From NCBI GenBank assembly GCA_001662655.1, contig KV460240.1: a DNA stretch of 64,000 nucleotides, one strand, 5' to 3'. A program made the translations under genes and the position numbers. Shown piece after piece: positions 22,255-42,428 of the stretch (positions are counted from its first letter, which is position 1; every line of letters begins with the position of its first letter). Source of the DNA: Pseudogymnoascus verrucosus (Eukaryota). The notes beneath the pieces are model-generated. The model was not told the origin of the DNA and searched no databases. It saw nothing but the letters and a program-made list of their open reading frames with translations.

Positions 22255-22986
22255 ATGAAGTGTACCATTCTCAGCAATGGCAGGCTCGCCCTTTTCGCTC
22301 TCGCCATCACACAATTCTGCCCTATTCTAGCCCACCCTTCCCTAGAGAAGCGCGGTGTCCCCATCGCCATGGGAGCTGCCAAAACATACGGAGCAATCGC
22401 AGCCACGACTCTCACCAGTACAGGCAACACCCTCATCACCGGCGACTGCGGAACCTGCCCTGGAACATCAATCTCCGGCTTTCCCCCTGGAGTGTGTACC
22501 GGAACAACATCTGCGGGTGGAACCGCAGCTTGCGCCGCAGAAGCCGCTTGTCTTTCAGCATACAACAATGCTAGAGCTCTTGCCCCCACCGCAACAGCTC
22601 TCCCATCATCGGACCTCGCAGGTTTAACATTGGCTCCAGGCGTCTACAAATTCCCCGCGTCGGCAGCCACTAATTCGGCCACTCTCACACTTAACGGAGC
22701 TACGAACACCAAGGGCCAATTCATCTTCCTTATCGACACAACTTTTACAACTGCCGCTAGCTCCAAAGTCGTGTTAATCAATGGCGCACAAGCTTGCAAT
22801 GTTTATTTTATTGTTGGCTCATCTGCTACTATTGGAGGGGCAACTGCAATGAACGGAAATATACTGGCGTATACTTCTGTTGGTTTGAGCAATGCTGCGA
22901 GTAATAAGGGTACTCTCTGTGCACTCAATGGAGCTGTTACTTTGATCAACAACGCCCTCACTGCTCAGACTGTCTGCACATCATAA
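22255..22986 (+). CDS. Secreted ice-binding protein (DUF3494/IBP-1 fold), intronless, 243 aa
   Basis: Signal peptide plus LEKR Kex2-type site. DUF3494 motifs TGNTLITGD, PGTSISGFPPG, DLAGLTLAPGVY, VVLINGAQACNVYFIVGSSATIG and GNILA. Rich in Thr, Ala and Gly; TATA box near 22076. Confidence 0.9.
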   Translation: MKCTILSNGRLALFALAITQFCPILAHPSLEKRGVPIAMGAAKTYGAIAATTLTSTGNTLITGDCGTCPGTSISGFPPGVCTGTTSAGGTAACAAEAACLSAYNNARALAPTATALPSSDLAGLTLAPGVYKFPASAATNSATLTLNGATNTKGQFIFLIDTTFTTAASSKVVLINGAQACNVYFIVGSSATIGGATAMNGNILAYTSVGLSNAASNKGTLCALNGAVTLINNALTAQTVCTS

Positions 22987-31059: not shown

Positions 31060-31533
31060 TCTTAGAGACGGGTATACCAAAGGCAACCTCCTACAAGACT
31101 GGACTATCAAACTAACTTCTAACGGATGGACGAACAATCAAACTGGCTTGGAATGGATTAAACGCTTCGAAAGCACATTCGAGGTCATAGAAAGAGCATT
31201 TACCGTATTCTACTACTCGAAGGGCATGAAAGTCACTAATCTGCCGAATTAATTCGAAACTTTCTGCAAAGAAAACAATATCAATACCCTCTCCTTCGCA
31301 CCACATCACTAAAACCAGGTTCCTCCTTGCATTTAAAGTTGCACACTTTACTATTGTGACTAAGGACAACGTTAAAAGAAGCTTTAGAAGGGCAAGCTTA
31401 GTTATTTTTAATCCTGAGGTAGGCATATCAAAGTTAGATGTTAAACTACGCACTCCGACACCTATAAGACCGCCTCCTTCAACACACGACTATCATACTA
31501 GTGGAAAGTAGCCCGCTCGGTGATGAACCACGT
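31060..31533 (+). mobile_element. Truncated, internally deleted pogo/Fot1 (Tc1-mariner) DNA transposon remnant
   Basis: DDE_1-type fragments WTIKLTSNGWTNNQTGLEWIKRF, FCKENNI and FNPEVGISKLDVKLRTPTP. The right end reads ...CGCTCGGTGATGAACCACGT followed by TA, typical of a Fot1/Pot terminus with a TA target. No left end found. Confidence 0.8.
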
Positions 31534-31709: not shown

Positions 31710-33149
31710 TCACGCTGATGCTACTATTTTGCCTTTACAAGCGCCAAATCCAACATGTCCCAGCCCGCTCTTGCCTTGCACTTGTGCCTTAAATTCTATG
31801 GTGTCGCCGTCCTCTAGGAACGCCCGGCTGATATTCTGTTTCCCTGAAAACTGTGCTTTCATCTCATAGGGATCGATGCCATTTCGCGTTGCTTCTAGAA
31901 AGCACCCAAGCTCTCCTCGAGTTGGTCCGGATAGTGTACCTGTGGCAATAAGATCCCCTGGTCGCATTGGGCACCCGCCTACTGTATGATGCGCTAGCAT
32001 TTGAGCAAAGGAGAAGACCACGTGCTTCGTATTACATTCCGTCACCGAATATGTTCCAGAGTCATCTATGTGACATTAGCTTAATGACGTGTTTCGACGG
32101 CAACTGAGAGACTGACTTTCTAGCGACACTCGAATCGGGATATCATATACCGACTGCTTTTCGTCTTGGTTCAGATAGGGAAGCTGTGGATCTTTCCAGG
32201 CATAAGTTGAGCATGTCATACCAAATGAAGAGCATAGAGTACTAACCGGCTGTTAAAGGCGTGGTTCGGAATGGTTCTAGAGCTTCCAAGGTCACAATCC
32301 ACGGTGAAATAGTGGTGCAGAAGTTCTTCCCATTGAAAGGCCCAAGCGGCGTGGACTCCCACTGCTGGATGTCTCTTGCTGACCAGTCGTTCATCAGAAC
32401 AACGCCAAAGATATGGTCTTCTGCCTCATTAACATCAATGCGGCTTCCCATCTTGTTGCCGCGCCCAATGAATGCAGCAAACTCAACTTCAAAATCGAGT
32501 TTCTGGCAAAGACTTTCGGTAGGGATTCCATTTAGGACAATTTGGCCTCTTGGTCGATGAACAGGCGTGCCTGAAATGACAACTGACGATGCCCGACCAT
32601 GATAGCCGACAGGCAGACTCGAAAAGTTTGGCGGGAGTCCCATTCCAGGCCGAAAGATGTCACAGCACTAGCCAACTACGTTAGCAATAGCCATGGCATC
32701 AAGGACGATCATCAGCCAGGATTGCCACATACATTTTGAGCATGATACAGGCCGACGAAGAAGTCGGTGTAATCACCTATGTGCATCGGCATGTGCATTT
32801 TTGCTCTAGACAACGGGACAAGAACTCTGTCCCTCCGATCTCGATGATCGCGCAAGACTGGGCCAAGCAGAGTACTTTCACTTAAGATATCTTGCATCAA
32901 TTTTCTTACATCATGATGAACACTCTTTCTTAAACTTGCGTACGCATTGATCGTCGGCTCTTCGAGCGTCGAGCTGTCGAAATCGATTGCAGCAAAGACC
33001 TTTTCCTGGGCTAGAGCTTTGAGATCCAGTACATAATCCCCAATTGCCACACCAATTCGCTGGTCCAGGTCATCAGTGCTGAAGACGCCATATGGAAGGT
33101 TCTGTAACGAAAAATCGGAGCCATCTTCAATTGGAATCCACGAGGCCAT
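31710..33149 (-). CDS. Fumarylacetoacetase (FAH)-family hydrolase, 4 exons (33149-32733, 32667-32247, 32191-32117, 32065-31710)
   Basis: [75 protein letters not shown] and [11 protein letters not shown]. Confidence 0.93.
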
Positions 33150-33659
33150 CGTTTTGCGTTATATTTAAACTATAATAGTTTAAATATTTGTTGTCGGGGC
33201 TACAGATTTGCTTTGTCTATACACAATTCAATAAAGAGACATACCTTTCAAGAGATTAAATATGAAAATACTCAACGCCTCTGCAATCCTATCTGCCGAT
33301 GTATCAGGCTAGGAGGCGGGCCATTAATTAGTTTTCCGATTCGGAAAATAGGTTCGGCCCTGGTAAGATCCTGGGTTATTTTCCGGACAGACTAGCGGGC
33401 CTTGTGATTCCCTCACCACACGGTCTGTTTCGGGTTGGGGAGAAGTCCTCCTGTCGAAGCTCCTAAGTATGACAGGTTCTCTGATTCACATCTCTTTTCT
33501 TGGACGGACAATCACGTGTAACATAGTGATTCAATGTTCCCCATTTTCCGAGCGCACTGTTGTGAAGTTTTACCTTAAGTAAGATCCCAAATCCGGGGTC
33601 CCCAGAAACCCCACAGTTCTAGAGTTGTCACTAAGCCGAATACAAAGCATATACAAGGC

Positions 33660-35487
33660 ATGGAATCTAAGATTGATACTCAACCAGCCGTTCGACATGA
33701 GGAGAACGCGGGGCTCGAAAAGCATCAACTAGCTCATGGCATAGTCGATGCTGCACATTTGTTCCAGGGAATGCACGTCGATCCCGAGAGGAGTTTATCA
33801 TTGCTAACGTATTGCTAGAGGATAACAGTGGTAAGGTGACTGGCCGGCTTCTGCTTCCAAGACCTACAGATAACCCCAAAGATCCGTTGGTAAGTCTCGC
33901 TTCATTGATATAACTTGAATAGACCAAAGTCGACTAAAAAGATACAGACGTGGAGTTTGTGGAGGAAGCATCTTTGCCTCGTCACTATCTGCTACTTCGT
34001 CTTTATGTCGAACTACATCACGGCCTCCATCTCACCGATTCTTCTCCCAATTCTGCTAGACTTCAAAATTACCCTGACTAAGGCAAGCTACCTCATCACG
34101 TTCAACATCCTTTTCCTAGGGATAGGAAATATATTTTGGATTCCTCTCTCGCTGAAAATAGGGAAGCGCCCCGTTCTTATCCTAAGTTCTGCCGTCTTCT
34201 TTGCTTCAAGCATTTGGTCTGCTCGTGCTCAATCTTGGGGATCATTGTTTGCGGCACGAATTATTCAGGGGTTCGGAGCTAGTTCATCAGAGGCTCTGGG
34301 TCCAGCCATTGTGGCAGACCTCTACTTCCTTCATGAGAGAGGAGCTAAGGTTGGGTTTTACACTTTCATGATTGCCAGTGGAAGTGCTCTTGGTGGCGTC
34401 TTCTCTGGTCTTGTTGCAAATGCAAACCCGGATTGGCGATGGGTCTTTTGGATGAACGTCATATTGACAGGAGTTTGCTTTCTGGCTACTGTCCTTTTTC
34501 AAGCGGAGACAAACTTCGAACGACCGCCTGAATATGAGACCGGCGAGGGCTTAGAAGCGTCCCAATTGCCAGACATCCGGGCTCGATCGAATGCGAGCTG
34601 GGCAAAGTCACTCAGTGTGACATCATGGTACGACAGGTATGCAGCTTTATTCCCGTGCTTATCTTGCTGTGTAGGGCACTGATCAATCTCAGGCAAACCT
34701 CAATATGGCGGCTTTGGTGGAGGCCTTTTCTGACGCTCCAATATCCTGCTGTCGTTTGGGGATCTGTTACTTATGGTGTGACTTTAGGTTGGGTTGTCTT
34801 CCAACAAACAGCCAATGCATCAGCTTTCCCCCAACTTTATGGATTCAGTAAACTTGCCCTCGGCAACGTCAACATTGCGGTGAGTTTCTTTGGGAGAGGT
34901 GCACACTCCTATGCTAACTATGTGTAGAATCTAATCGGCTCAATCGTGGGATGTCTTGTTGGAGGCCCCCTGAGCGACTACCTGGTCGGTATCATCTCAA
35001 AGCGTCGTGGTGGCTATTTCAAACCCGAGTTCCGCTTGTGGTGTCTTATACCATCTTTCCTATTTGGACCTATTGGCCTAATGCTCTGGGGTGGTGGGCT
35101 TGGGGATCATTTACCGGCTATGGTCGCAATTGCAGGTTCTGGAATCACCTACGGGGTGCTTTGTGCTGTTCCAACTGTTGCGATGACCTACGTCGTTGAT
35201 TCCTATCGGCCGCTGGCTGGAGAAACAATGACAATCCTTACGGCTTTCAAGAACACCTTTGCTTTCGGGTTAAGTTTTGCTGTAGTTCCATGGCTGGAAA
35301 AGGATGGATTCGTTAAGGTAAGTTCGTTCTTACATGCTTCTCGCATGCGTAAAGAGCTTTGCTGACAAGTCTTGGAAAGGTCTCTGGGTGGATGGTCTTG
35401 ATCGAGGGACTCATATTTCTCACCGCCATCCCGATGTATATATACGGTGAAAGGGTCCAACGATGGACAAGCAAATTTGAAGTATAA
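33660..35487 (+). CDS. Major facilitator superfamily transporter, multi-exon
   Basis: LLPRPTDNPKDPL/TWSLWRK, KIGKRPV, ADLYFLHERG, WRWVFW, GGPLSD and KPEFRL motifs; many TM helices; stop TAA 35485-35487. Confidence 0.88.
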
Positions 35488-36315
35488 GAATCAGCAAGGT
35501 TTGGATGAAGCTGTCCGGCATCTATTTCTGGGTGGCAAGGAAGTAGCGACTGTCCGGAAACTATTTAGCAGAGCAATATTATACCGGATGAGGTCAATTG
35601 TTAAAGGAACCTCGGAAAAGTTATCTTTAAAGGCCGTGTAGATAACTCAACTGCTTCCTGAGGCCCTTGTCTAAGAAACTAGTAACATTCTTCGTAATAT
35701 CTTGTCGGTATGCCATATGAGAGCAAAAACACCGAGAATATTAATATTTTAAACATTTGAGTGCCTGCGATAACTTTAATGATGAGTGATTAAGTGGTTG
35801 TGGTGGGAATGCGTAGTATCCTGTTGCAATCATAAGAACTACCAGGGTACTAGGTGGGCGGCTGAAATTGTAGTTGACTTACACGATACTCTGATTCCTT
35901 CGTTACGGCATCGAGATTTAAGTAACTCATTTGATTTTGCGCAGTAGAAAATCAGATCAATCTATGCGCAGAAAATACTTCATCGTAAGTATTTCCTTGA
36001 TTTTGCCAGACCGCGGTTCTCGAGCTGACCGTCTGTACTTTGTTCTCTCGTGTTCACGATACAACACGAGCGAGCAAGTTCTTAGATTTTAGTTTGAATT
36101 TCATATTTCATCCCTACCGGCCAGTCTGCCAATTCACCTCCTCATCAGATCTGCCAGCACCTTATCTCGTATGTCCGGCCCCTCCTCCTATCATTCTGCC
36201 ATCCCACTTCCCAACGTCAACGAACGCTCGTGAGTAAAAAATAAGTCACATCCATCTTTCCAACGACCGCCGTTCGTTGACCAGGCCAAAAAAAAAGAAG
36301 ATAAAAAAACAAAAA

Positions 36316-36434
36316 ACATACAACAGTGGGTATTCGCTGGTGGTCACCCACCCAACTACTAATCCACCGATCTCAAGCTTGTGTATGGCAGAGCGGACGG
36401 GATGCCCAATTCTCTTGAGTCTATGGTCGTATGT
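36316..36434 (-). rRNA. Dispersed 5S rRNA gene
   Basis: Minus strand reads ACATACGACCATAG...CATCCCGTCCGCTCTGCC...TTAGTAGTTGGGTGGGTGACCACCAGCGAATAC...TGTTGTATGT (119 nt). Downstream poly-T terminator and an upstream TATA near -25. Confidence 0.95.
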
Positions 36435-36761
36435 ATTAGTTCTTGACGCACGGGGGTATATATACCAAATAAGGAGGAGATTTTTGGCGGCCCTCACTGG
36501 TGAGATCATTTGGGACGTGTTGCTGCTTTGAATCGGGATATCATGGGACACGGGGTCGGGATATTACCCCACGGGACACGGGGTCGGGTTATTACCCCGC
36601 AGATTTCCCCGCTGTGTGTCGTTGAACTTACGGCACCCCTTAGTCCTGCCGTTGAACCCCTAGAACTCCTTAATAAAGAGAGGAGGGGGCGACAAGAATA
36701 TGCTCAAGTCAGACTGCCTCCATCTCTATTGTCTTCGGAAATCCCTTTAAAATTCGACAAA

Positions 36762-38210
36762 ATGGTTGGAAGATATCTTATTCAGAATGCCACAGTGATC
36801 TCAGTTGACGCTGCCATTGGCATTGTTCGTAACTGTGACGTCCTTATTGAGCATGGCATCATCACTGCAGTCGCTCAGAACCTCCCCACCTCTGCAGACC
36901 TCACAATTATCGACGCGACTGATGCCATCGTGTCTCCTGGGTTTGTGGATACACACAGACATACCTGGCAAACCCAGCTGCGAACGATAACTTCGGACTA
37001 TGTACTATCAGACTACGTCGTCAACATCCGCAATATATATGGCTCCTGCTATACTCCTCATGACGCATACCTAGGCAACTATTGTGGAGCCCTAGAATCG
37101 ATCGATAATGGCATCACGTACTTGGTTGATCATTCTCATATCATGAACTCTCCTGATCATGCGGATGCAGCCGTCAAAGGTCTTCAGGACTCAAAAATCA
37201 GGGCGGTCTTTTGCTATGGCTTGTATGAAAACCCCGCTTGGGAAGGCTCGAGTGTGAACAAGGAGCAGGAGATAAAGAACCCGAAATGGAGATGGGATGA
37301 CGCCAGGCGCATTAGGGAGAAGTACTTCAAGTCCAATCAACCTACCGACCTCCTACGATTTGGGTTTGCCCCTGCTGAAATAGAACGGGGCACACTCGCC
37401 GAAGCCATTGATGAGGTTGAATTTGGTAGATCACTCGGATCTGCAGTAATTACTGGTCATGTGGCAATGGGAAAATATGATCGTGGAGCCCATATCGTTC
37501 GCAATTTCGAGCAGAGGAATATTCTTGGCCCAGATCTTTTGTTTAGTCATTGTGCAACATTGCATGATGACGAACTAGAAGCTGTCAAGAAAAATGGTGT
37601 CTCTCTATCGAGCACTCCAGATACGGAACTTCAAATGGGAATGGGTCATCCAATCGCCTTTAAAGCGCACAAACATGGTTGCGTTGCAAGCATTGGGATC
37701 GACATTACCTCAAATAATCCTGCGGACATGTTTCAACAAATGAGATTACTTCTTCAAGCTCAGCGACATTTGGACAACGAAAAACACGCCGTAAGACTTC
37801 CAAAAGTATCACAGAGGTGCGAAGAAGTTCTTGAGATGGCAACCATTGGTGGCGCAGCAGCTGTGGGATTGCAAGACGTCATCGGTAGCATCACTCCTGG
37901 CAAAAGAGCTGATCTTCTCATTACTCGCTGTGATTCGACCAGAATGACTCCCGTGCATGATCCTGTTGCAGCCTTGGTGTTGTATGCAAATGCTTTCGAT
38001 ATTGATACGGTCTTCATTGATGGGGAGTTAGTCAAGCACAAGGGGCTGCTGACGGGAGTGGACTGGCCCAAGGTACGTCGAGAGCTTTGTGATTCAGCCG
38101 CATCTATCATGGAACGATCAAAGAACGCTCCTACTGAGGAGATCAACGTTGCTATCATGCAGATGCTTCAAGGTTTTGCGGGCGATGGAAATGGGACCGA
38201 CGGAGCGTGA
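36762..38210 (+). CDS. Metal-dependent amidohydrolase (MTA/SAH deaminase / chlorohydrolase-like), intronless, 482 aa
   Basis: PGFVDTHRHTWQ (HxH), GITYLVDHSH, ITGHV, LFSH, SIGID and ATIGGAAAVGL...GSITPGKRADL. Confidence 0.9.
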   Translation: MVGRYLIQNATVISVDAAIGIVRNCDVLIEHGIITAVAQNLPTSADLTIIDATDAIVSPGFVDTHRHTWQTQLRTITSDYVLSDYVVNIRNIYGSCYTPHDAYLGNYCGALESIDNGITYLVDHSHIMNSPDHADAAVKGLQDSKIRAVFCYGLYENPAWEGSSVNKEQEIKNPKWRWDDARRIREKYFKSNQPTDLLRFGFAPAEIERGTLAEAIDEVEFGRSLGSAVITGHVAMGKYDRGAHIVRNFEQRNILGPDLLFSHCATLHDDELEAVKKNGVSLSSTPDTELQMGMGHPIAFKAHKHGCVASIGIDITSNNPADMFQQMRLLLQAQRHLDNEKHAVRLPKVSQRCEEVLEMATIGGAAAVGLQDVIGSITPGKRADLLITRCDSTRMTPVHDPVAALVLYANAFDIDTVFIDGELVKHKGLLTGVDWPKVRRELCDSAASIMERSKNAPTEEINVAIMQMLQGFAGDGNGTDGA

Positions 38211-38828
38211 TGCATGTTTTCTATTGGCCGCCTTATACTGCTTGATCTCGTTAAGGACGCCCCGAAGTTTGCGCATTAACTTCAACATTTGAGACTAAGG
38301 AGCTTGATTTGAAAGTTGATCCTTGAGTTTGTCATGTAAAAAGCGTTTATATAACCGTTAGATATTAATAAACGACTTAATGGATGCTTCTGAACCCTTA
38401 AAACCCCTATCCTAGCTGCACAAATAACCGTAACATTGCAAGCACCGGTCTAGGGAGAGAACTGTGAGTTATTGTTAACAACTAATAATGATGAATTTGA
38501 TGATTGCTCAACAGGGAGATATGACACCCTAATATATTGCATGAATTGATCCAGTCTACCTAGGCTGCGTAGTATACCACTTAGAGCATCGCGTCCGAAT
38601 AGGGGAAGGTGTGTAAACCTAACTCGAACTTTCAATTTTCCGAGGTTTTCCGAACCCCGCATTCCCCAATACCCCGCACTCCCTTATATTGTCCCTTGCT
38701 CGAGTTATACCTTCCCTTTGGATTCATGCATGATCCATCTGTTATCAAGCTCTACTTAATACTAACATCATAAACGCTACGGATAATATATGAGATTGCA
38801 TTTATGATCGGAAAATTCTAAAATCCTT

Positions 38829-41345
38829 ATGTTGGCAGCATCGGGACGGCCACGCAAGGCCTGCAGCCAATGTAAGGGCCATAAGGTACTGACTGAACTT
38901 GTGAACTGAACTTGTGACCCTGGCACTTGCAACGCTTTACAAGCACCCTTTTCAAATCCAAATCACGAATAAACAGACTGATGTTAAGCAGGTCCGCTGT
39001 TCGGGTGATAAGCCGGTCTGCAGACGATGCTCGCGCCTAAGACACGCTTGCATCTATAGTGCCAAGAGTGTCAATAGTGTCAATGTCCCTCAGGTGGACG
39101 GAACGTCGAGTTTATTGCAAAATGCGCGCGTAACAGATACTCCTCCGACACCAGTATCTACTACCACCCCTAGTCGAGAAGAAGGCCATTCTACCTACCG
39201 AGGGAGTTATGGAGCAGAAACCACCAGAAACAAGTACCCGATTCCCCCATTGCTGTTGACATCACCCTCGCAAGATTACAATCTCGGGATTCCTGAATCG
39301 TTGGTTTCTAGCCTGATCGAAGTATACTACTCTGATGTGTACAATGCATCTCTGCTGTTGCATAAGCGCATGTTCTTAGAAGCAGTAGCTGCAGGTACAG
39401 CTCGTCCTCAAGTTGTTCTGAGTGTCTGCGCGATTGCGTCAATGTATGATTGAAAACTCTCAACTCTGGATAACATAGTTGACCTTTTTTATGTTCAGTT
39501 TCCATCTTGACTCCAAGAACCAGACTTCCCTCAAAGAACATGGATTCAGCACACAATGGGCCGAGCGTGCAGGCAAGCTTGCGTTCCAAGAAGTCGAAAG
39601 CCCGAACGAAGATAACATTGTGGCATTTATAAATCTAGCGCTTTTTTGGTACAGCCAGGGATCCTGGCGGAGGTCTTATATACATAAGGGTATTGAACCT
39701 GAACCCGTTTTCTTTAGTTTAAGGTGTTTTACTAACCATTTCAATCGACTTCAGGCAATGCTCTGCAGCTGGCACATCTCCTAGGATTTGGAACCGAAAG
39801 ACCTGACAAGGCGGGTTCCTTGGAATCAGAGATCCAGCGCCGTCGCTTCTGGGCATGTTATCTTATGAATTGCCACGCACCGGAGTCTATGTCCGTGCCA
39901 GAGATATCGAAGACGGCACAAAAGCTTAGACTTCCCTGGCGAGACGAAGATTTCGAAGCTGGGTTCTGTGCGGAGCCAGGGGTCTCCCTGGATTCTGGAC
40001 AAAGCAACGAAGGTATCTTCTGCGAATTGGTCAAGGCCATGACATATTGGTATGATCGATCGACCGGTAATGCATACCTGCTCTAGAGCTGACAATATCT
40101 AGGCGTGCGGTTTTTAACTTGATCAAATCACCTGAGTCTAGCATTAGCGCTAGAGTTTCTGACATCCATGCCCTCGATGCTCAAATAGCGGAATGGTGGT
40201 CTAAACTTCCTACTTCTCTTCACTTGACGCCTTCTAGCATCTCAGAAACGCCTCACAGTGTCCTGCCTAAACTCCTACTCATCCACACCGTCCATCACCA
40301 GTGTCTCTGTGCTCTACACTCCTCCATCGTTCCTCTTTTTTCTTGGGGCGCAAGTGATAACACATGGTTGACTGCACGAAATCTCTCAGCACAAATAGCT
40401 TTCGAACACGCTTGCGAGGCTTCTACACTTTTCGAAGCGATCCTTACGAATTCCAACGAATCTAGTGCCATCCCAAGTTTTATTGCATATGCAGCCTACT
40501 GTGGATGCGCGATTCAGATTCCTTTTATGTGGTGCTCCGAACCATCAGTCAGGGAGAAGGCACATGCAAACGTCAGGACGAATATCAGAATGATCCATCT
40601 TTCGGCGAAGTACTGGAAGTTTAGCGCGTTGTTGGTAGGGTTTCTCTCTCCCATTTTCCGCCGCAAGTCGGACATGATTCAGGACCGAATGATAACATTC
40701 GAGTAGGAAATCCACTTTCAGTATCTCTACAAAATGCACGCGAAAGATCCGGTTCCTCTCGAAAACGAACCCAAACATCTCGCCGAGGGGAAATTAAAGG
40801 GATTTAGAATCAGCGCATCTCATGCGCGTGATTCCATATTGGGGCATAACAGCATTTTGTGGAGCAGGGGTGATGGTTATGCAAAATCAGGCGAAGAGGT
40901 TACCGATCTGGGGATTCAAGATGAGAATAGTCTTCAACCTTCCGGCTTAACGGGCCAAGACTGTAAGTGGAGTCTCTTACCAAGAATTGCGAGAGCAATC
41001 AAAACTAATCGTACCTCTTTTGCCACCGTAGTTTCTAGGACTATCACCCCACAGAGCCAGTGTCGTCCTCCCTCGCGGGCACCTATAGCCGAAGAAGATC
41101 AGCCACTCACATCTGCGGATCCCAATCCGACGACCATTGTTCAAGAGGACCTCTATGCTCAGCCATCTCCAACTCTGGATTTCTTCCACCCGTTTCTCGA
41201 CCCCGAGATTCTGGATGGTTTCCCCGACGGCGAGGTCTTGGATTTCTCGCAATATGGGACGATTCCAGCGAGCTTTGACTTTTTCGACGGTTGGGCTCTT
41301 GGTGCTGGAGAGGTTCCGGAGACTAGAGGGAACGAGATGGGGTAA
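38829..41345 (+). CDS. Zn(II)2Cys6 transcription factor with fungal-specific TF domain, multi-exon
   Basis: MLAASGRPRKACSQCKGHK/VRCSGDKPVCRRCSRLRHAC zinc cluster split by an intron; EIQRRRFWACY middle homology region; acidic C-terminus. Confidence 0.88.
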
Positions 41346-41558
41346 GGTGAGCTAAGGAAAGGTAATGGAAGGAAAGGAAGGTAAGGTGAGGAAAAGGAAA
41401 GGAAAGGAATAACGGTGTCATACTACTAGCCGGAGCAGCATCCATCTAAGCACACACCATTGCATCCCACACTTAGTAATTCTCCTAAACCACCATGCCC
41501 TCTCGGGTTTATGGCGCGGAATTTACAAACCAAAAGTCTCACGGCCGAGGTTCACGGA

Positions 41559-41691
41559 GCAATATCGGATCATTGTTGATGTTGGTAGTGCCGGGTCGGG
41601 ATATTGGCAATACCGGATCATTGTTGACATTGGTAGCACTGGGTCGGGATATTGCGTTTAAGGTTACACTTTTCCGATCATGATCGGAAAA
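41559..41691. promoter_or_regulatory. Cupin promoter: two 48-bp tandem units plus a perfect 22-bp palindrome TTTTCCGATCATGATCGGAAAA
   Basis: Units at 41559-41606 and 41607-41654; palindrome at 41670-41691; CGG triplets typical of Zn2Cys6 sites. Confidence 0.55.
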
Positions 41692-41846
41692 TTAGAAAGT
41701 TGCATTTCCAACTGTCGGATGGGTCTAGAAAAGCACTTTTCAATCCACAAGTTTTAAGTAAGAAGGTACCCCAAGCCTCGACATCAAAATCCCATCTCCT
41801 TCCTTCCACGCCTCGAACGAACAACTAGCCTTGCATTAAGACAAAG

Positions 41847-42428
41847 ATGTCCACCACCACCACCACCACGCTCCCCTCCAACCTCCCCAACCCCACAATC
41901 CACATAACAACCCACTCCCCCACAACCGGCAAAGCGCACCTCCACTCCTCCACCCAAAACGCCTGGACCTTCCTCCGCTCCTCCACCATCGGCTTCAACG
42001 TCATCTACACCACCTCCCAATTCCCCGCCAGCCTTTCCTCCAACACCGACATCACCACGCACGAGAAAGTCGTCCAATCCGGAACCCTCGGCCTCGTCCA
42101 ACCCCACGGCACGGTGTGCCGCATCGTCGATTTCGGACCCCAGCACGAGCCGCTCATGCACCGCACGCAGTCGCTCGATTACGGCGTCGTGCTGGAGGGG
42201 GAAATCGAGATGGAGCTCGATGGGGGGGAGGTTAAGGTGTTGAGGAGGGGGGATGTGGCGGTGCAGAGGGGGACGATGCATGCGTGGAGGAATCAGAGTA
42301 AGACGGAGTGGGCGAGGATGTTGTTCGTGCTGCAGGATTGTGAGCCGGTGGTTGTGGGGGGGGAGAGGTTGGGGGAGGATCTGGGGGGTGAGGTGGAGGG
42401 GTTGCCGGGGAGTGGGAATGGTGAGTGA
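41847..42428 (+). CDS. Cupin-2 domain protein
   Basis: MHRTQSLDYGVVLEGEIEMELDGGE...GDVAVQRGTMHAWRN cupin metal motifs. Confidence 0.9.
   Translation: MSTTTTTTLPSNLPNPTIHITTHSPTTGKAHLHSSTQNAWTFLRSSTIGFNVIYTTSQFPASLSSNTDITTHEKVVQSGTLGLVQPHGTVCRIVDFGPQHEPLMHRTQSLDYGVVLEGEIEMELDGGEVKVLRRGDVAVQRGTMHAWRNQSKTEWARMLFVLQDCEPVVVGGERLGEDLGGEVEGLPGSGNGE

What the first reader, a model, noticed from the sequence alone, without database searches (positions are those of the whole stretch)
31710..42428. Candidate uncharacterised catabolic gene cluster: FAH paralog + MFS + amidohydrolase + Zn2Cys6 TF + cupin
Seen: five intact genes in ~10.7 kb, with FAH and MFS divergent across ~510 bp. Known: tyrosine-pathway FAH usually sits with hmgA/maiA, which are absent here, and this copy has a divergent DFFVGLYH segment. 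FAH enzymes cleave C-C bonds of ring-fission products, HxH amidohydrolases deaminate or hydrolyse N-compounds, and some cupins are dioxygenases. Inference: a self-regulated module for uptake and breakdown of an amino-aromatic or N-heterocyclic compound. I do not recognise this combination as a described pathway, and the substrate cannot be read from the sequence.
Basis: partly seen in the sequence, partly recalled or inferred. Interest (0 to 1): 0.75.

Follow-up and report, generated by a model that had tools for sequence, protein, structure and literature searches.

The report
Conserved fungal ring-hydrolysis catabolic cluster
Five neighbouring fungal genes (a transporter, three enzymes and their regulator) form an undescribed breakdown unit, found linked in many fungi and mirrored in soil bacteria, that probably opens a small ring compound with water and cuts it into acetoacetate plus an acid; the exact compound is still unknown.

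Summary
All five genes model intact. The FAH belongs to a separate clade (SH 1.0), and the canonical fahA lies on another contig. FAH, amidohydrolase and regulator have neighbouring accessions in fungi of four classes, and one metagenomic contig carries all five genes. A CGGAAAA motif is enriched in the cluster's intergenic DNA and in related clusters.

The interpretation needs changes. The amidohydrolase (PRK08204, no known function) lacks the deaminase HxxE glutamate. The cupin is StrC-type (Z 21.6), not a typical dioxygenase. The cluster has no oxygenase. The FAH clade keeps all catalytic residues but has lost Tyr244.

Bacterial relatives of the amidohydrolase sit beside FAH-family, 3,5-dioxohexanoate-cleaving and acetoacetate-activating enzymes, once with the same cupin family. 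Best reading: a purely hydrolytic route from a hydroxy-pyrone or pyridone ring to a beta-diketo acid, then to acetoacetate plus an acid. The substrate is inferred, not shown. No description was found in the searches run.

The parts
31710..33149 (-). Fumarylacetoacetase-family C-C hydrolase, 422 aa, non-canonical clade. Exons 33149-32733, 32667-32247, 32191-32117, 32065-31710
   Evidence: identical to P0366; TIGR01266 485.7 bits, cut-off 375.3; separate clade
33150..33659 (.). 510-bp divergent promoter with 4 CGGAAAA sites (33332, 33342, 33379, 33544; the first two form an inverted pair)
33660..35487 (+). MFS transporter, 517 aa. Exons 33660-33768, 33819-33889, 33948-34636, 34693-34879, 34928-35317, 35380-35487. 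Intron 1 is modelled as GA-AG
   Evidence: PF07690; linked homologues in L009 and L011
36315..36434 (-). 5S rRNA gene inside the cluster (dispersed type; probably a passenger)
   Evidence: Rfam RF00001, 74.2 bits
36762..38210 (+). Amidohydrolase, 482 aa, single exon, PRK08204 subfamily. H65, H67, H233, H263, D314 present; no HxxE Glu; invariant E289
   Evidence: NF006056 440.9 bits, cut-off 391; fold; residues
38211..38828 (.). TF upstream region with 3 CGGAAAA sites (38636, 38646, 38809); possible autoregulation
38829..41345 (+). Zn2Cys6 transcription factor, 698 aa, 7 exons
   Evidence: PF00172; model; PF04082 in close relatives; 68% identical to P0243
41670..41691 (.). Palindromic pair of CGGAAAA sites upstream of the cupin
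41847..42428 (+). Cupin, 193 aa, StrC/3ES1 type, His105/Asp111/His145 site
   Evidence: Z 21.6, rmsd 1.7, 176 aligned to 8X0U StrC

Best explanation
A TF-controlled, oxygen-independent catabolic module for a small ring compound that is already at the 1,3-dicarbonyl oxidation level, most likely a hydroxy-pyrone (triacetic-acid-lactone type, alkyl or aryl substituted) or its pyridone analogue. Step 1 (inferred): the MFS imports it. Step 2 (inferred): the mononuclear-metal amidohydrolase adds hydroxide to the ring carbon and opens the ring; an enolate leaving group would not need the HxxE acid. Step 3 (inferred, weakest step): the StrC-type cupin hydrates, tautomerises or helps open the polycarbonyl intermediate, the reverse of StrC chemistry; steps 2 and 3 could be in the other order. 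Step 4 (best supported): the FAH hydrolyses the C-C bond of a 3,5- or 2,4-dioxo acid to acetoacetate (or pyruvate) plus R-COOH, with a remodelled pocket for an R that is not fumaryl. Step 5 (inferred): the Zn2Cys6 factor activates the genes through CGGAAAA sites. Shown here: gene anatomy, conserved linkage, residue patterns, motif enrichment. Not shown: any activity, substrate or expression. I put about 0.8 on 'co-regulated catabolic module ending in dioxo-acid cleavage' and about 0.45 on the whole statement including the substrate class.
For: Linkage: 5 of 5 FAH/amidohydrolase pairs looked up (chosen for sharing a contig length) lie 2-3 accessions apart. More pairs appear in locus tags and accessions. 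L011 holds all five genes. FAH: D126, H133, E199, E201, D233, R237, Q240, K253 are kept in 31 of 31 clade members, while Tyr244 is in 0 of 31 (55 of 55 others) and Arg142 in 8 of 31 (55 of 55 others). Arg142 binds fumarate (PMC5108417); the 244-249 loop enters the partner active site (PMC7916972). Amidohydrolase: no Glu at the HxxE position in 48 of 48 fungal sequences; AtzA's Glu aligns to Met236. Bacterial relatives: FAH-family gene within 5 kb in 10 of 80 loci against 0 of 76 control loci with half the flank. A 3,5-dioxohexanoate-cleaving enzyme above cut-off lies in two different operons. CoA transferase A or A/B subunits follow in two. A Rhodococcus plasmid has FAH, same-family cupin and amidohydrolase in tandem. 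Precedents: lactonase plus FAH degrade triacetic acid lactone (bioRxiv 10.64898/2026.10.14.759095); IfcD cupins convert a hydroxy-pyrone (PMC11069340); LumW lactonase and LumY cupin act on a pyrone (PMC12746152). Motif.
Against: No substrate or activity was measured. All nearest solved folds of the amidohydrolase are N-heterocycle deaminases or chlorohydrolases, and it keeps their HxHxxQ motif; none of the top rows is titled a lactonase. An invariant E289 (126 of 126) could replace the missing acid; that loop is poorly modelled (pLDDT under 50). The window's own FAH keeps R142, P246 and L247 and passes the fumarylacetoacetase model, so it may still cleave fumarylacetoacetate. FAH is not an obligate partner: the closest amidohydrolase relatives (Cadophora, Rhexocercosporidium, Rhinocladiella mackenziei; 76-88%) gave no FAH-clade row, and only 11 of 31 named clade rows could be shown adjacent to a partner. 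70 of 80 bacterial loci have no FAH within 5 kb, and 8 of the 10 that do are in one clade. Some bacterial operons do carry a monooxygenase and a dioxygenase. I could not test whether IfcD or LumY belong to this cupin subfamily. The cupin's GC3 (0.84) differs from the other four genes (0.46-0.50).
Confidence: 0.45

Rival explanations
1. Nitrogen-scavenging route for an amino-heterocycle. The amidohydrolase deaminates or opens an aminopyrimidine or aminopyridone (for example a 6-methylisocytosine type, whose C4-C6 carbons carry an acetoacetate skeleton), using E289 or E206 as the acid. The cupin and FAH then finish the carbon chain.
For: Top folds are isoxanthopterin-, isocytosine- and adenosine-type deaminases and triazine hydrolases, Z 37-40 (the isoxanthopterin label for the top row is recalled). 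HxHxxQ is kept in nearly all sequences. Bacterial partners include MBL-fold and PF04199 hydrolases, which can be lactamases.
Against: The HxxE glutamate is absent in 48 of 48 fungal sequences. The fungal cluster has no second amide hydrolase to open the deaminated ring. No deaminase model reaches its cut-off.
Confidence: 0.25
2. Lower pathway for aromatic ring-fission products. Oxygenases encoded elsewhere (or the cupin itself) cleave a resorcinol- or hydroquinone-type ring. The amidohydrolase reopens the pyrone that forms spontaneously, and the FAH cleaves a 2,4,6-trioxo acid.
For: Bacterial operons with FAD monooxygenase, PRK08204 enzyme, esterase, VOC dioxygenase and FAH, some with a beta-keto-acid cleavage enzyme. 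L011 adds a GST.
Against: No oxygenase among the five genes or in L009/L011. Those bacterial enzymes lack E206 and form a separate branch. The cupin has Thr in place of the second His and matches StrC far above other cupins.
Confidence: 0.15
3. Biosynthetic tailoring or detoxification add-on. The StrC-type cupin and an AHS-like amidohydrolase modify a polyketide made elsewhere, the MFS exports it, and the FAH removes shunt products.
For: StrC, VirC and PaltE act in polyketide biosynthesis (PMC13463297). AHS is a more distant fold match, Z 31. The MFS scores weakly to efflux families.
Against: No PKS- or NRPS-sized frame appears among the long ORFs of the window or of L009/L011. Bacterial contexts are catabolic.
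Confidence: 0.07
4. The FAH is a spare fumarylacetoacetase for tyrosine or phenylacetate catabolism and its neighbours are only loosely related.
For: Passes TIGR01266; the window copy keeps R142.
Against: A canonical copy exists. The clade lost Tyr244 in 31 of 31 and repeatedly lies beside the amidohydrolase and TF.
Confidence: 0.05
5. Chance accumulation of unrelated genes at an insertion hotspot beside tRNA genes, a 5S gene and a transposon relic.
For: Hotspot features are present; the cupin has a different GC3.
Against: The same genes are linked, in different orders, in distant fungi, and share a promoter motif.
Confidence: 0.03

Closest known systems
Tyrosine degradation (TD) cluster, hppD-hmgX-hmgA-fahA-maiA-hmgR (PMC3914699, passages)
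   Same: Large two-domain FAH, a Zn2Cys6 regulator, clustered catabolic genes.
   Different: No hppD, hmgA or maiA here. The FAH is a separate clade, 48% identical to the genome's canonical copy. Amidohydrolase, cupin and MFS are not TD genes.
Gentisate/stilbene catabolism (GC) cluster (PMC3914699, passages)
   Same: FAH-family hydrolase, cupin, C6 TF and MFS.
   Different: The GC cupin is gentisate 1,2-dioxygenase, and the cluster has salicylate hydroxylase and stilbene dioxygenase. Here there is no oxygenase and the cupin is StrC-type. 'Amidohydrolase' does not occur in that paper's main text.
Triacetic acid lactone degradation in liver: unidentified lactonase plus FAH (bioRxiv 10.64898/2026.10.14.759095, passages)
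   Same: Ring opening to a 3,5-dioxo acid followed by FAH cleavage to acetoacetate; the logic proposed here.
   Different: Not a gene cluster; uses canonical FAH; the lactonase is reported as CoA-dependent and is unidentified.
Lower lumichrome pathway LumW/LumY/LumX (PMC12746152, parts 1-2 of 6)
   Same: Metal hydrolase opens a pyrone, a cupin hydrates the product, C-C cleavage gives pyruvate and acetoacetate.
   Different: Bacterial; cleavage is by a retro-aldolase; that cluster's FAH (LumV) has no assigned role; homology to these genes was not tested.
Isoflavone catabolism ifc cluster, IfcD cupins (PMC11069340, part 3 of 6)
   Same: Cupins convert a 2-hydroxy-5-aryl-4-pyrone.
   Different: Begins with a monooxygenase and dioxygenase; no amidohydrolase or FAH named in the main text; cupin subfamily not compared.
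cog0402-type deaminases and triazine chlorohydrolases (AtzA, TrzN, isocytosine deaminase Vcz)
   Same: Same fold (Z 37-40), HxH/H/H/D metal site, HxHxxQ.
   Different: 18-24% identity; no HxxE Glu; invariant E289, D123 and H126 instead.
StrC/VirC/PaltE cupins (8X0U; PMC13463297, passages)
   Same: Closest structure, Z 21.6, 34% identity; act on polycarbonyl intermediates.
   Different: Those sit in HR-PKS biosynthetic clusters; this one sits with hydrolases and no PKS.

Membership tests
Fumarylacetoacetase (TIGR01266) sequence family | Whole-protein score above the curated cut-off; both FAH domains | tested here: met
   485.7 bits against 375.3; PF09298 and PF01557
Fumarylacetoacetase (TIGR01266) sequence family | Metal and catalytic residues D126, H133, E199, E201, D233, R237, Q240, K253, E364 (roles recalled) | tested here: met
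   All present in the window copy
Canonical tyrosine-pathway fahA | Orthology to canonical FAHs | tested here: not met
   Falls in a separate 31-member clade, SH 1.0; C31 copy groups with canonical fungal FAHs
Canonical tyrosine-pathway fahA | Substrate-side residues R142, Y244, P246 as in all canonical copies | tested here: not met
   R142 and P246 kept, Y244 is Ser; Y244 in 55 of 55 non-clade sequences
Canonical tyrosine-pathway fahA | Hydrolyses fumarylacetoacetate | not testable with these tools
   needs an enzyme assay
TD cluster | hmgA (with hppD, maiA) clustered with fahA | tested here: not met
   HgmA_C hits only on C85, C24, C18; none among window ORFs
GC (gentisate/stilbene) cluster | Gentisate dioxygenase, salicylate hydroxylase, stilbene dioxygenase | tested here: not met
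   None among the five genes; the cupin's best sequence and structure matches are StrC and 3ES1
PRK08204 amidohydrolase subfamily (no known function) | NF006056 score above cut-off | tested here: met
   440.9 bits against 391
cog0402 deaminases/chlorohydrolases | Fold and mononuclear HxH, H, H, D site | tested here: met
cog0402 deaminases/chlorohydrolases | HxxE general-acid glutamate after strand 5 (role recalled) | tested here: not met
   Met236 in the window; no Glu among the commonest residues, 48 fungal sequences
StrC/3ES1-type cupins | Structural match standing well above other cupins; HRTxSxD and QRxTxHxW motifs | tested here: met
   Z 21.6 and 17.8 against 11.4 for the next row; motifs
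Ring-cleaving cupin dioxygenases | Three-His (or three-His, one-Glu) metal site (recalled) | tested here: not met
   His105, Thr107, Asp111, His145
Ring-cleaving cupin dioxygenases | Structural similarity to a solved dioxygenase | tested here: inconclusive
   none titled dioxygenase in the top 50 rows; weak sequence hits to quercetinase, E 0.002
Self-regulated fungal catabolic gene cluster | Conserved physical linkage across genomes | tested here: met
Self-regulated fungal catabolic gene cluster | Shared cis-element in member promoters | tested here: met
   CGGAAAA in 3 of 4 window regions and 5 of 6 regions of L009/L011; no exact site upstream of the window's amidohydrolase
Self-regulated fungal catabolic gene cluster | Co-expression and dependence on the resident TF | not testable with these tools
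   no RNA holder listed

The most novel reading that the evidence does not exclude
PRK08204 amidohydrolases are a widespread, undescribed class of pyrone/pyridone ring hydrolases. Fungi and bacteria have separately assembled the same three-slot pathway around them: ring hydrolase; a polyketide-cyclase-like protein running in reverse (StrC-type cupin, MBL fold or PF04199); and a dioxo-acid cleaving enzyme (large FAH, small FAH or beta-keto-acid cleavage enzyme). This would be the missing route by which soil microbes recycle triketide pyrones and flavonoid-derived pyrones without oxygen, with duplicated fungal clusters specialised for different side chains.
Probability: 0.3. Interest if true: 0.8.

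Novelty: new variant of a known kind. Interest (0 to 1): 0.6.

Why it matters
It gives a testable function to an amidohydrolase subfamily that is labelled 'hypothetical protein' in NCBIfam yet occurs in fungi, bacteria and haloarchaea. It defines a fungal FAH clade that databases call fumarylacetoacetase although its substrate pocket has changed. It points to a catabolic role for a cupin type known so far from polyketide biosynthesis. Three small soluble enzymes, a short substrate list and a candidate TF site make the question cheap to settle. If the pyrone reading holds, it bears on the turnover of plant, fungal and lichen polyketides in soil and on product loss in triacetic acid lactone bioproduction.

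Tried and rejected
Cupin as an unrelated flanking gene: suspected from GC3 0.84; rejected because L009 and L011 have a cupin next to the amidohydrolase, the three group in a clade of 8 of 113 sequences (SH 0.88, short alignment), and a palindromic motif pair lies upstream.
One-intron FAH model of 397 aa for the 3' part: rejected, since the two-intron form matches P0366.
A second copy of the cluster in the genome: not found; other amidohydrolase hits are 22-41% identical fragments, and three paralogue neighbourhoods showed no partner genes.
Horizontal transfer: not claimed. GC3 is lower than most flanking genes, but the closest amidohydrolases are from Leotiomycetes and the tree has no sound root.
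Expression and splicing: no RNA holder listed; no reads were laid, so both are untested.
Literature: five searches for this gene combination or subfamily returned 3, 4, 5, 1 and 1 papers; none of the listings or passages seen describes this cluster. Two fungal cluster surveys do not contain 'amidohydrolase' in their main text; their supplements were not seen and could list it. Fusarium clusters induced by lactams (PMC10512309, passages and outline) contain amidohydrolases, but I could not fetch those genes to compare. Searches for FAH pocket residues and TrzN E241Q kinetics found nothing, so those roles are recalled. PMC13197243 (passages) was uninformative.
Earlier scan findings: none. Atlas search gave only generic amidohydrolase clusters.
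The 3,5-dioxohexanoate enzyme in Rhodococcus G003 lies about 18 kb from the amidohydrolase in a different gene set and was not counted. The transposon relic had no Pfam hit and no close copy elsewhere in the genome.

Full report
1. What is in the sequence. The window comes from a Pseudogymnoascus-type fungus: the amidohydrolase is 99% identical to a Pseudogymnoascus protein. Between 31,710 and 42,428 lie five genes that all model without internal stops: FAH (422 aa, minus strand), MFS (517 aa), amidohydrolase (482 aa, one exon), Zn2Cys6 factor (698 aa) and cupin (193 aa). The FAH model equals deposited protein P0366 letter for letter. FAH and MFS are divergent across 510 bp. A 5S rRNA gene sits between MFS and amidohydrolase. 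Three tRNA-Ile genes and a degenerate transposon relic with a RIP-like signature (TpA/ApT 1.49 against 0.61-0.68 in genes) lie to the left. GC3 is 0.46-0.50 for four genes and 0.84 for the cupin.

2. The FAH is not the tyrosine-pathway copy. The genome has three large FAH genes, on C31, C35 (this one) and C12. In a tree of 87 sequences (83 of 120 database rows that passed a 385-490 aa length filter, plus 4 built from loci), the window copy falls in a 31-member clade with SH support 1.0, and the C31 copy groups with canonical fungal enzymes. The two are 48% identical. All clade members keep D126, H133, E199, E201, D233, R237, Q240 and K253 (31 of 31) and 30 of 31 keep E364; the roles of these residues are recalled. 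The substrate side differs: Tyr244 in 0 of 31 against 55 of 55 others, Arg142 in 8 of 31 against 55 of 55 (a gappy loop), Pro246 in 11 of 31 against 55 of 55. Arg142 hydrogen-bonds fumarate in the mouse structure (PMC5108417, passages), and the 244-249 loop reaches into the partner active site (PMC7916972, passages). The window copy itself keeps R142 and P246 and passes TIGR01266 at 485.7 bits, lower than two canonical comparators at 586 and 698. So it is an intact C-C hydrolase with an altered pocket, and residual fumarylacetoacetase activity is not excluded.

3. The linkage is conserved. I looked up five FAH/amidohydrolase pairs that shared a contig length; all five are 2-3 accessions apart, in Thozetella (two clusters), Tothia, Cladophialophora psammophila and Exophiala aquamarina. 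Locus tags add Stylonectria (g2648/g2649) and Elasticomyces (014123/014125). A second C. psammophila cluster has TF, amidohydrolase and FAH consecutive, and Tothia and Thozetella have the TF in the same run. The TF is 1-3 tags from an FAH in Xylogone, E. oligosperma and a second Elasticomyces, and 1-2 tags from the amidohydrolase in Rhinocladiella, C. chaetospira, Fusarium decemcellulare, Rhexocercosporidium and Cadophora. These span Leotiomycetes, Sordariomycetes, Dothideomycetes and Eurotiomycetes (class assignments recalled). Four of 80 metagenomic loci were fungal. L011 (L010 appears to be the same sequence) holds cupin, amidohydrolase, TF, MFS and FAH plus a GST; L009 holds MFS, cupin and amidohydrolase, with no TF or FAH on its 8.8-kb contig; L012 (3.2 kb) holds the amidohydrolase only. 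Against: only 11 of 31 named FAH-clade rows could be shown adjacent to a partner, the rest being untestable or unlinked in capped lists, and the closest amidohydrolase relatives gave no FAH-clade row. The core is amidohydrolase plus TF; FAH is a frequent, not obligate, partner.

4. A shared promoter motif. CGGAAAA is the joint-commonest 7-mer in the four window intergenic regions, with 9 copies; any 7-mer reached 9 in 2 of 1000 dinucleotide shuffles. It occurs 11 times in 31.5-42.5 kb and 5 times in the other 53 kb. In six upstream regions of L009 and L011 it occurs 6 times in 5 regions, against 0.4 expected (0 of 1000 shuffles). The motif was first seen in a pooled count of all ten regions, so that second test is not strictly held out, although the window alone ranks it first. 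There is no exact site upstream of the window's amidohydrolase. CGG triplets are typical Zn2Cys6 half-sites (recalled); that this TF binds them is inference.

5. The amidohydrolase. It passes only PRK08204, a subfamily named 'hypothetical protein' (440.9 bits against 391). Its model (pLDDT 85.9) matches deaminases and triazine hydrolases at Z 37-40 and 18-24% identity. H67, D123, H126, H233, H263, E289 and D314 are invariant in 48 fungal and 78 bacterial sequences (2 of 80 loci dropped by length), and H65 in all but one. The HxxE glutamate is missing: AtzA's aligns to Met236. E206 is in 48 of 48 fungal and 24 of 78 bacterial sequences, including 9 of the 10 that lie beside an FAH.

6. The cupin. 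It matches StrC at Z 21.6 (rmsd 1.7, 176 aligned) and 3ES1 at 17.8, with the next row at 11.4. Its site is His105, Asp111, His145, with Thr at the second His position. StrC is an aromatase and its homologues promote cyclisation or dehydration of polycarbonyl intermediates (PMC13463297, passages). It groups with the L009 and L011 cupins more closely than with any of six paralogues in its own genome.

7. What bacterial neighbours say. An FAH-family gene lies within 5 kb in 10 of 80 loci of relatives, against 0 of 76 control loci of mostly distant amidohydrolases that had half as much flanking DNA. Eight of the ten are one clade, so this is about three independent cases. These FAHs are the short bacterial type, so the pairing is not inherited with the fungal FAH. 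The third gene varies: MBL-fold hydrolase (7 loci) or PF04199 cyclase (6 loci). A 3,5-dioxohexanoate:acetyl-CoA acetone transferase above cut-off is in the same operon in L152/L157 (identical, one event) and in L214, there followed by a 3-oxoacid CoA-transferase subunit. In a sample of 301 genomes of that order, 6 had a close relative. Of 9 annotated plasmid regions I chose to open out of 85 and 21 hits, 4 have an FAH nearby and 5 do not. One Rhodococcus opacus plasmid has FAH, cupin and amidohydrolase in tandem, with an acyl-CoA ligase-type gene and aryl-keto-acid genes beside them; its cupin is of the same family (30%, E 1.5e-14) and its amidohydrolase has E206. Another has amidohydrolase, FAH, AMP-binding protein, cyclase, MFS and CoA transferase A/B. 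A separate branch without E206 occurs with a monooxygenase and a VOC dioxygenase.

8. How it most likely works. The end of the route is the firmest inference: a beta-diketo acid is cleaved to acetoacetate or pyruvate plus an acid. With no oxygenase or dehydrogenase among the five genes, the substrate should already carry the 1,3-dicarbonyl pattern. A hydroxy-pyrone or pyridone fits, and an enolate leaving group would explain the missing general acid. Precedents exist for each step in other systems: lactonase plus FAH on triacetic acid lactone (bioRxiv 10.64898/2026.10.14.759095, passages), cupins on a hydroxy-pyrone (PMC11069340, part 3 of 6), and hydrolase, cupin and C-C cleavage on a pyrone (PMC12746152, parts 1-2 of 6). 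None of these is shown to be homologous to the genes here. Deamination of an amino-heterocycle is the main rival because the fold neighbours all act on N-heterocycles.

9. Novelty and verdict. Catabolic clusters with an FAH, a transporter and a C6 factor are a known kind. This composition was not found in the paper searches, in the main text of two fungal cluster surveys or in earlier scan notes; subscription papers and supplements were not seen. It is a new variant: a real, conserved, probably co-regulated module built on an amidohydrolase subfamily of unknown function, with a bacterial counterpart. Interest 0.6; about 0.8 if the pyrone-hydrolase reading is confirmed.

Noticed in passing
window 33769-33818: MFS intron 1 appears to be a 50-nt GA-AG intron. 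The same GA donor is present in the distant homologue L009, and the intron looks GC-AG in L011. The only in-frame GT alternative gives a 26-nt intron. A conserved non-canonical splice site; no RNA evidence.
   Followed up: partly
window 36315-36434: A dispersed 5S rRNA gene lies inside the cluster.
   Followed up: no
window about 29.8-31.0 kb: Three tRNA-Ile(AAT) genes within 1.2 kb, just left of the cluster.
   Followed up: no
window 31070-31500: Degenerate transposase relic with stops and frameshifts and a RIP-like dinucleotide bias; looks Fot1/pogo-like (recalled; no Pfam hit).
   Followed up: partly
window 36533-36600 and 41580-41660: Short duplicated CGG-rich repeats upstream of the amidohydrolase and of the cupin share a GGGTCGGGATATT-like core; a possible second TF site.
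   Followed up: no
G000:C12 about 335-358 kb (L007, L008, L185): A second divergent FAH paralogue sits in its own cluster with a same-family cupin, a PepX_C/CocE-type hydrolase, a P450, an FAD oxidoreductase, a LigB-type dioxygenase, an aldehyde dehydrogenase and a TF. It also lacks Tyr244 and Arg142.
   Followed up: partly
G000:C31 about 143-148 kb (L005): The canonical fahA lies beside a P450 (phenylacetate-hydroxylase-like, recalled) and a Zn2Cys6 gene, not beside hmgA; the genome has three HgmA-domain genes elsewhere.
   Followed up: partly
window 22255-22986: Secreted ice-binding-like protein (PF11999), single exon, in a lower-GC stretch.
   Followed up: no
L011:3006-3794: A GST shares a divergent promoter, with two CGGAAAA sites, with the cluster cupin in this relative; it is below the maiA cut-off.
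   Followed up: partly
L152, L157, L208 (Sphingomonadales): An identical amidohydrolase occurs in three genomes next to an integrase-like gene; in one copy an insertion sequence interrupts the following gene. A recently mobile catabolic island.
   Followed up: no
L214, L151, L216, L217: An apparently undescribed bacterial operon: FAD monooxygenase, PRK08204 amidohydrolase, esterase, VOC dioxygenase, FAH, and in some a beta-keto-acid cleavage enzyme, in Sphingomonadales, Pandoraea, Cupriavidus and Rhodococcus.
   Followed up: partly
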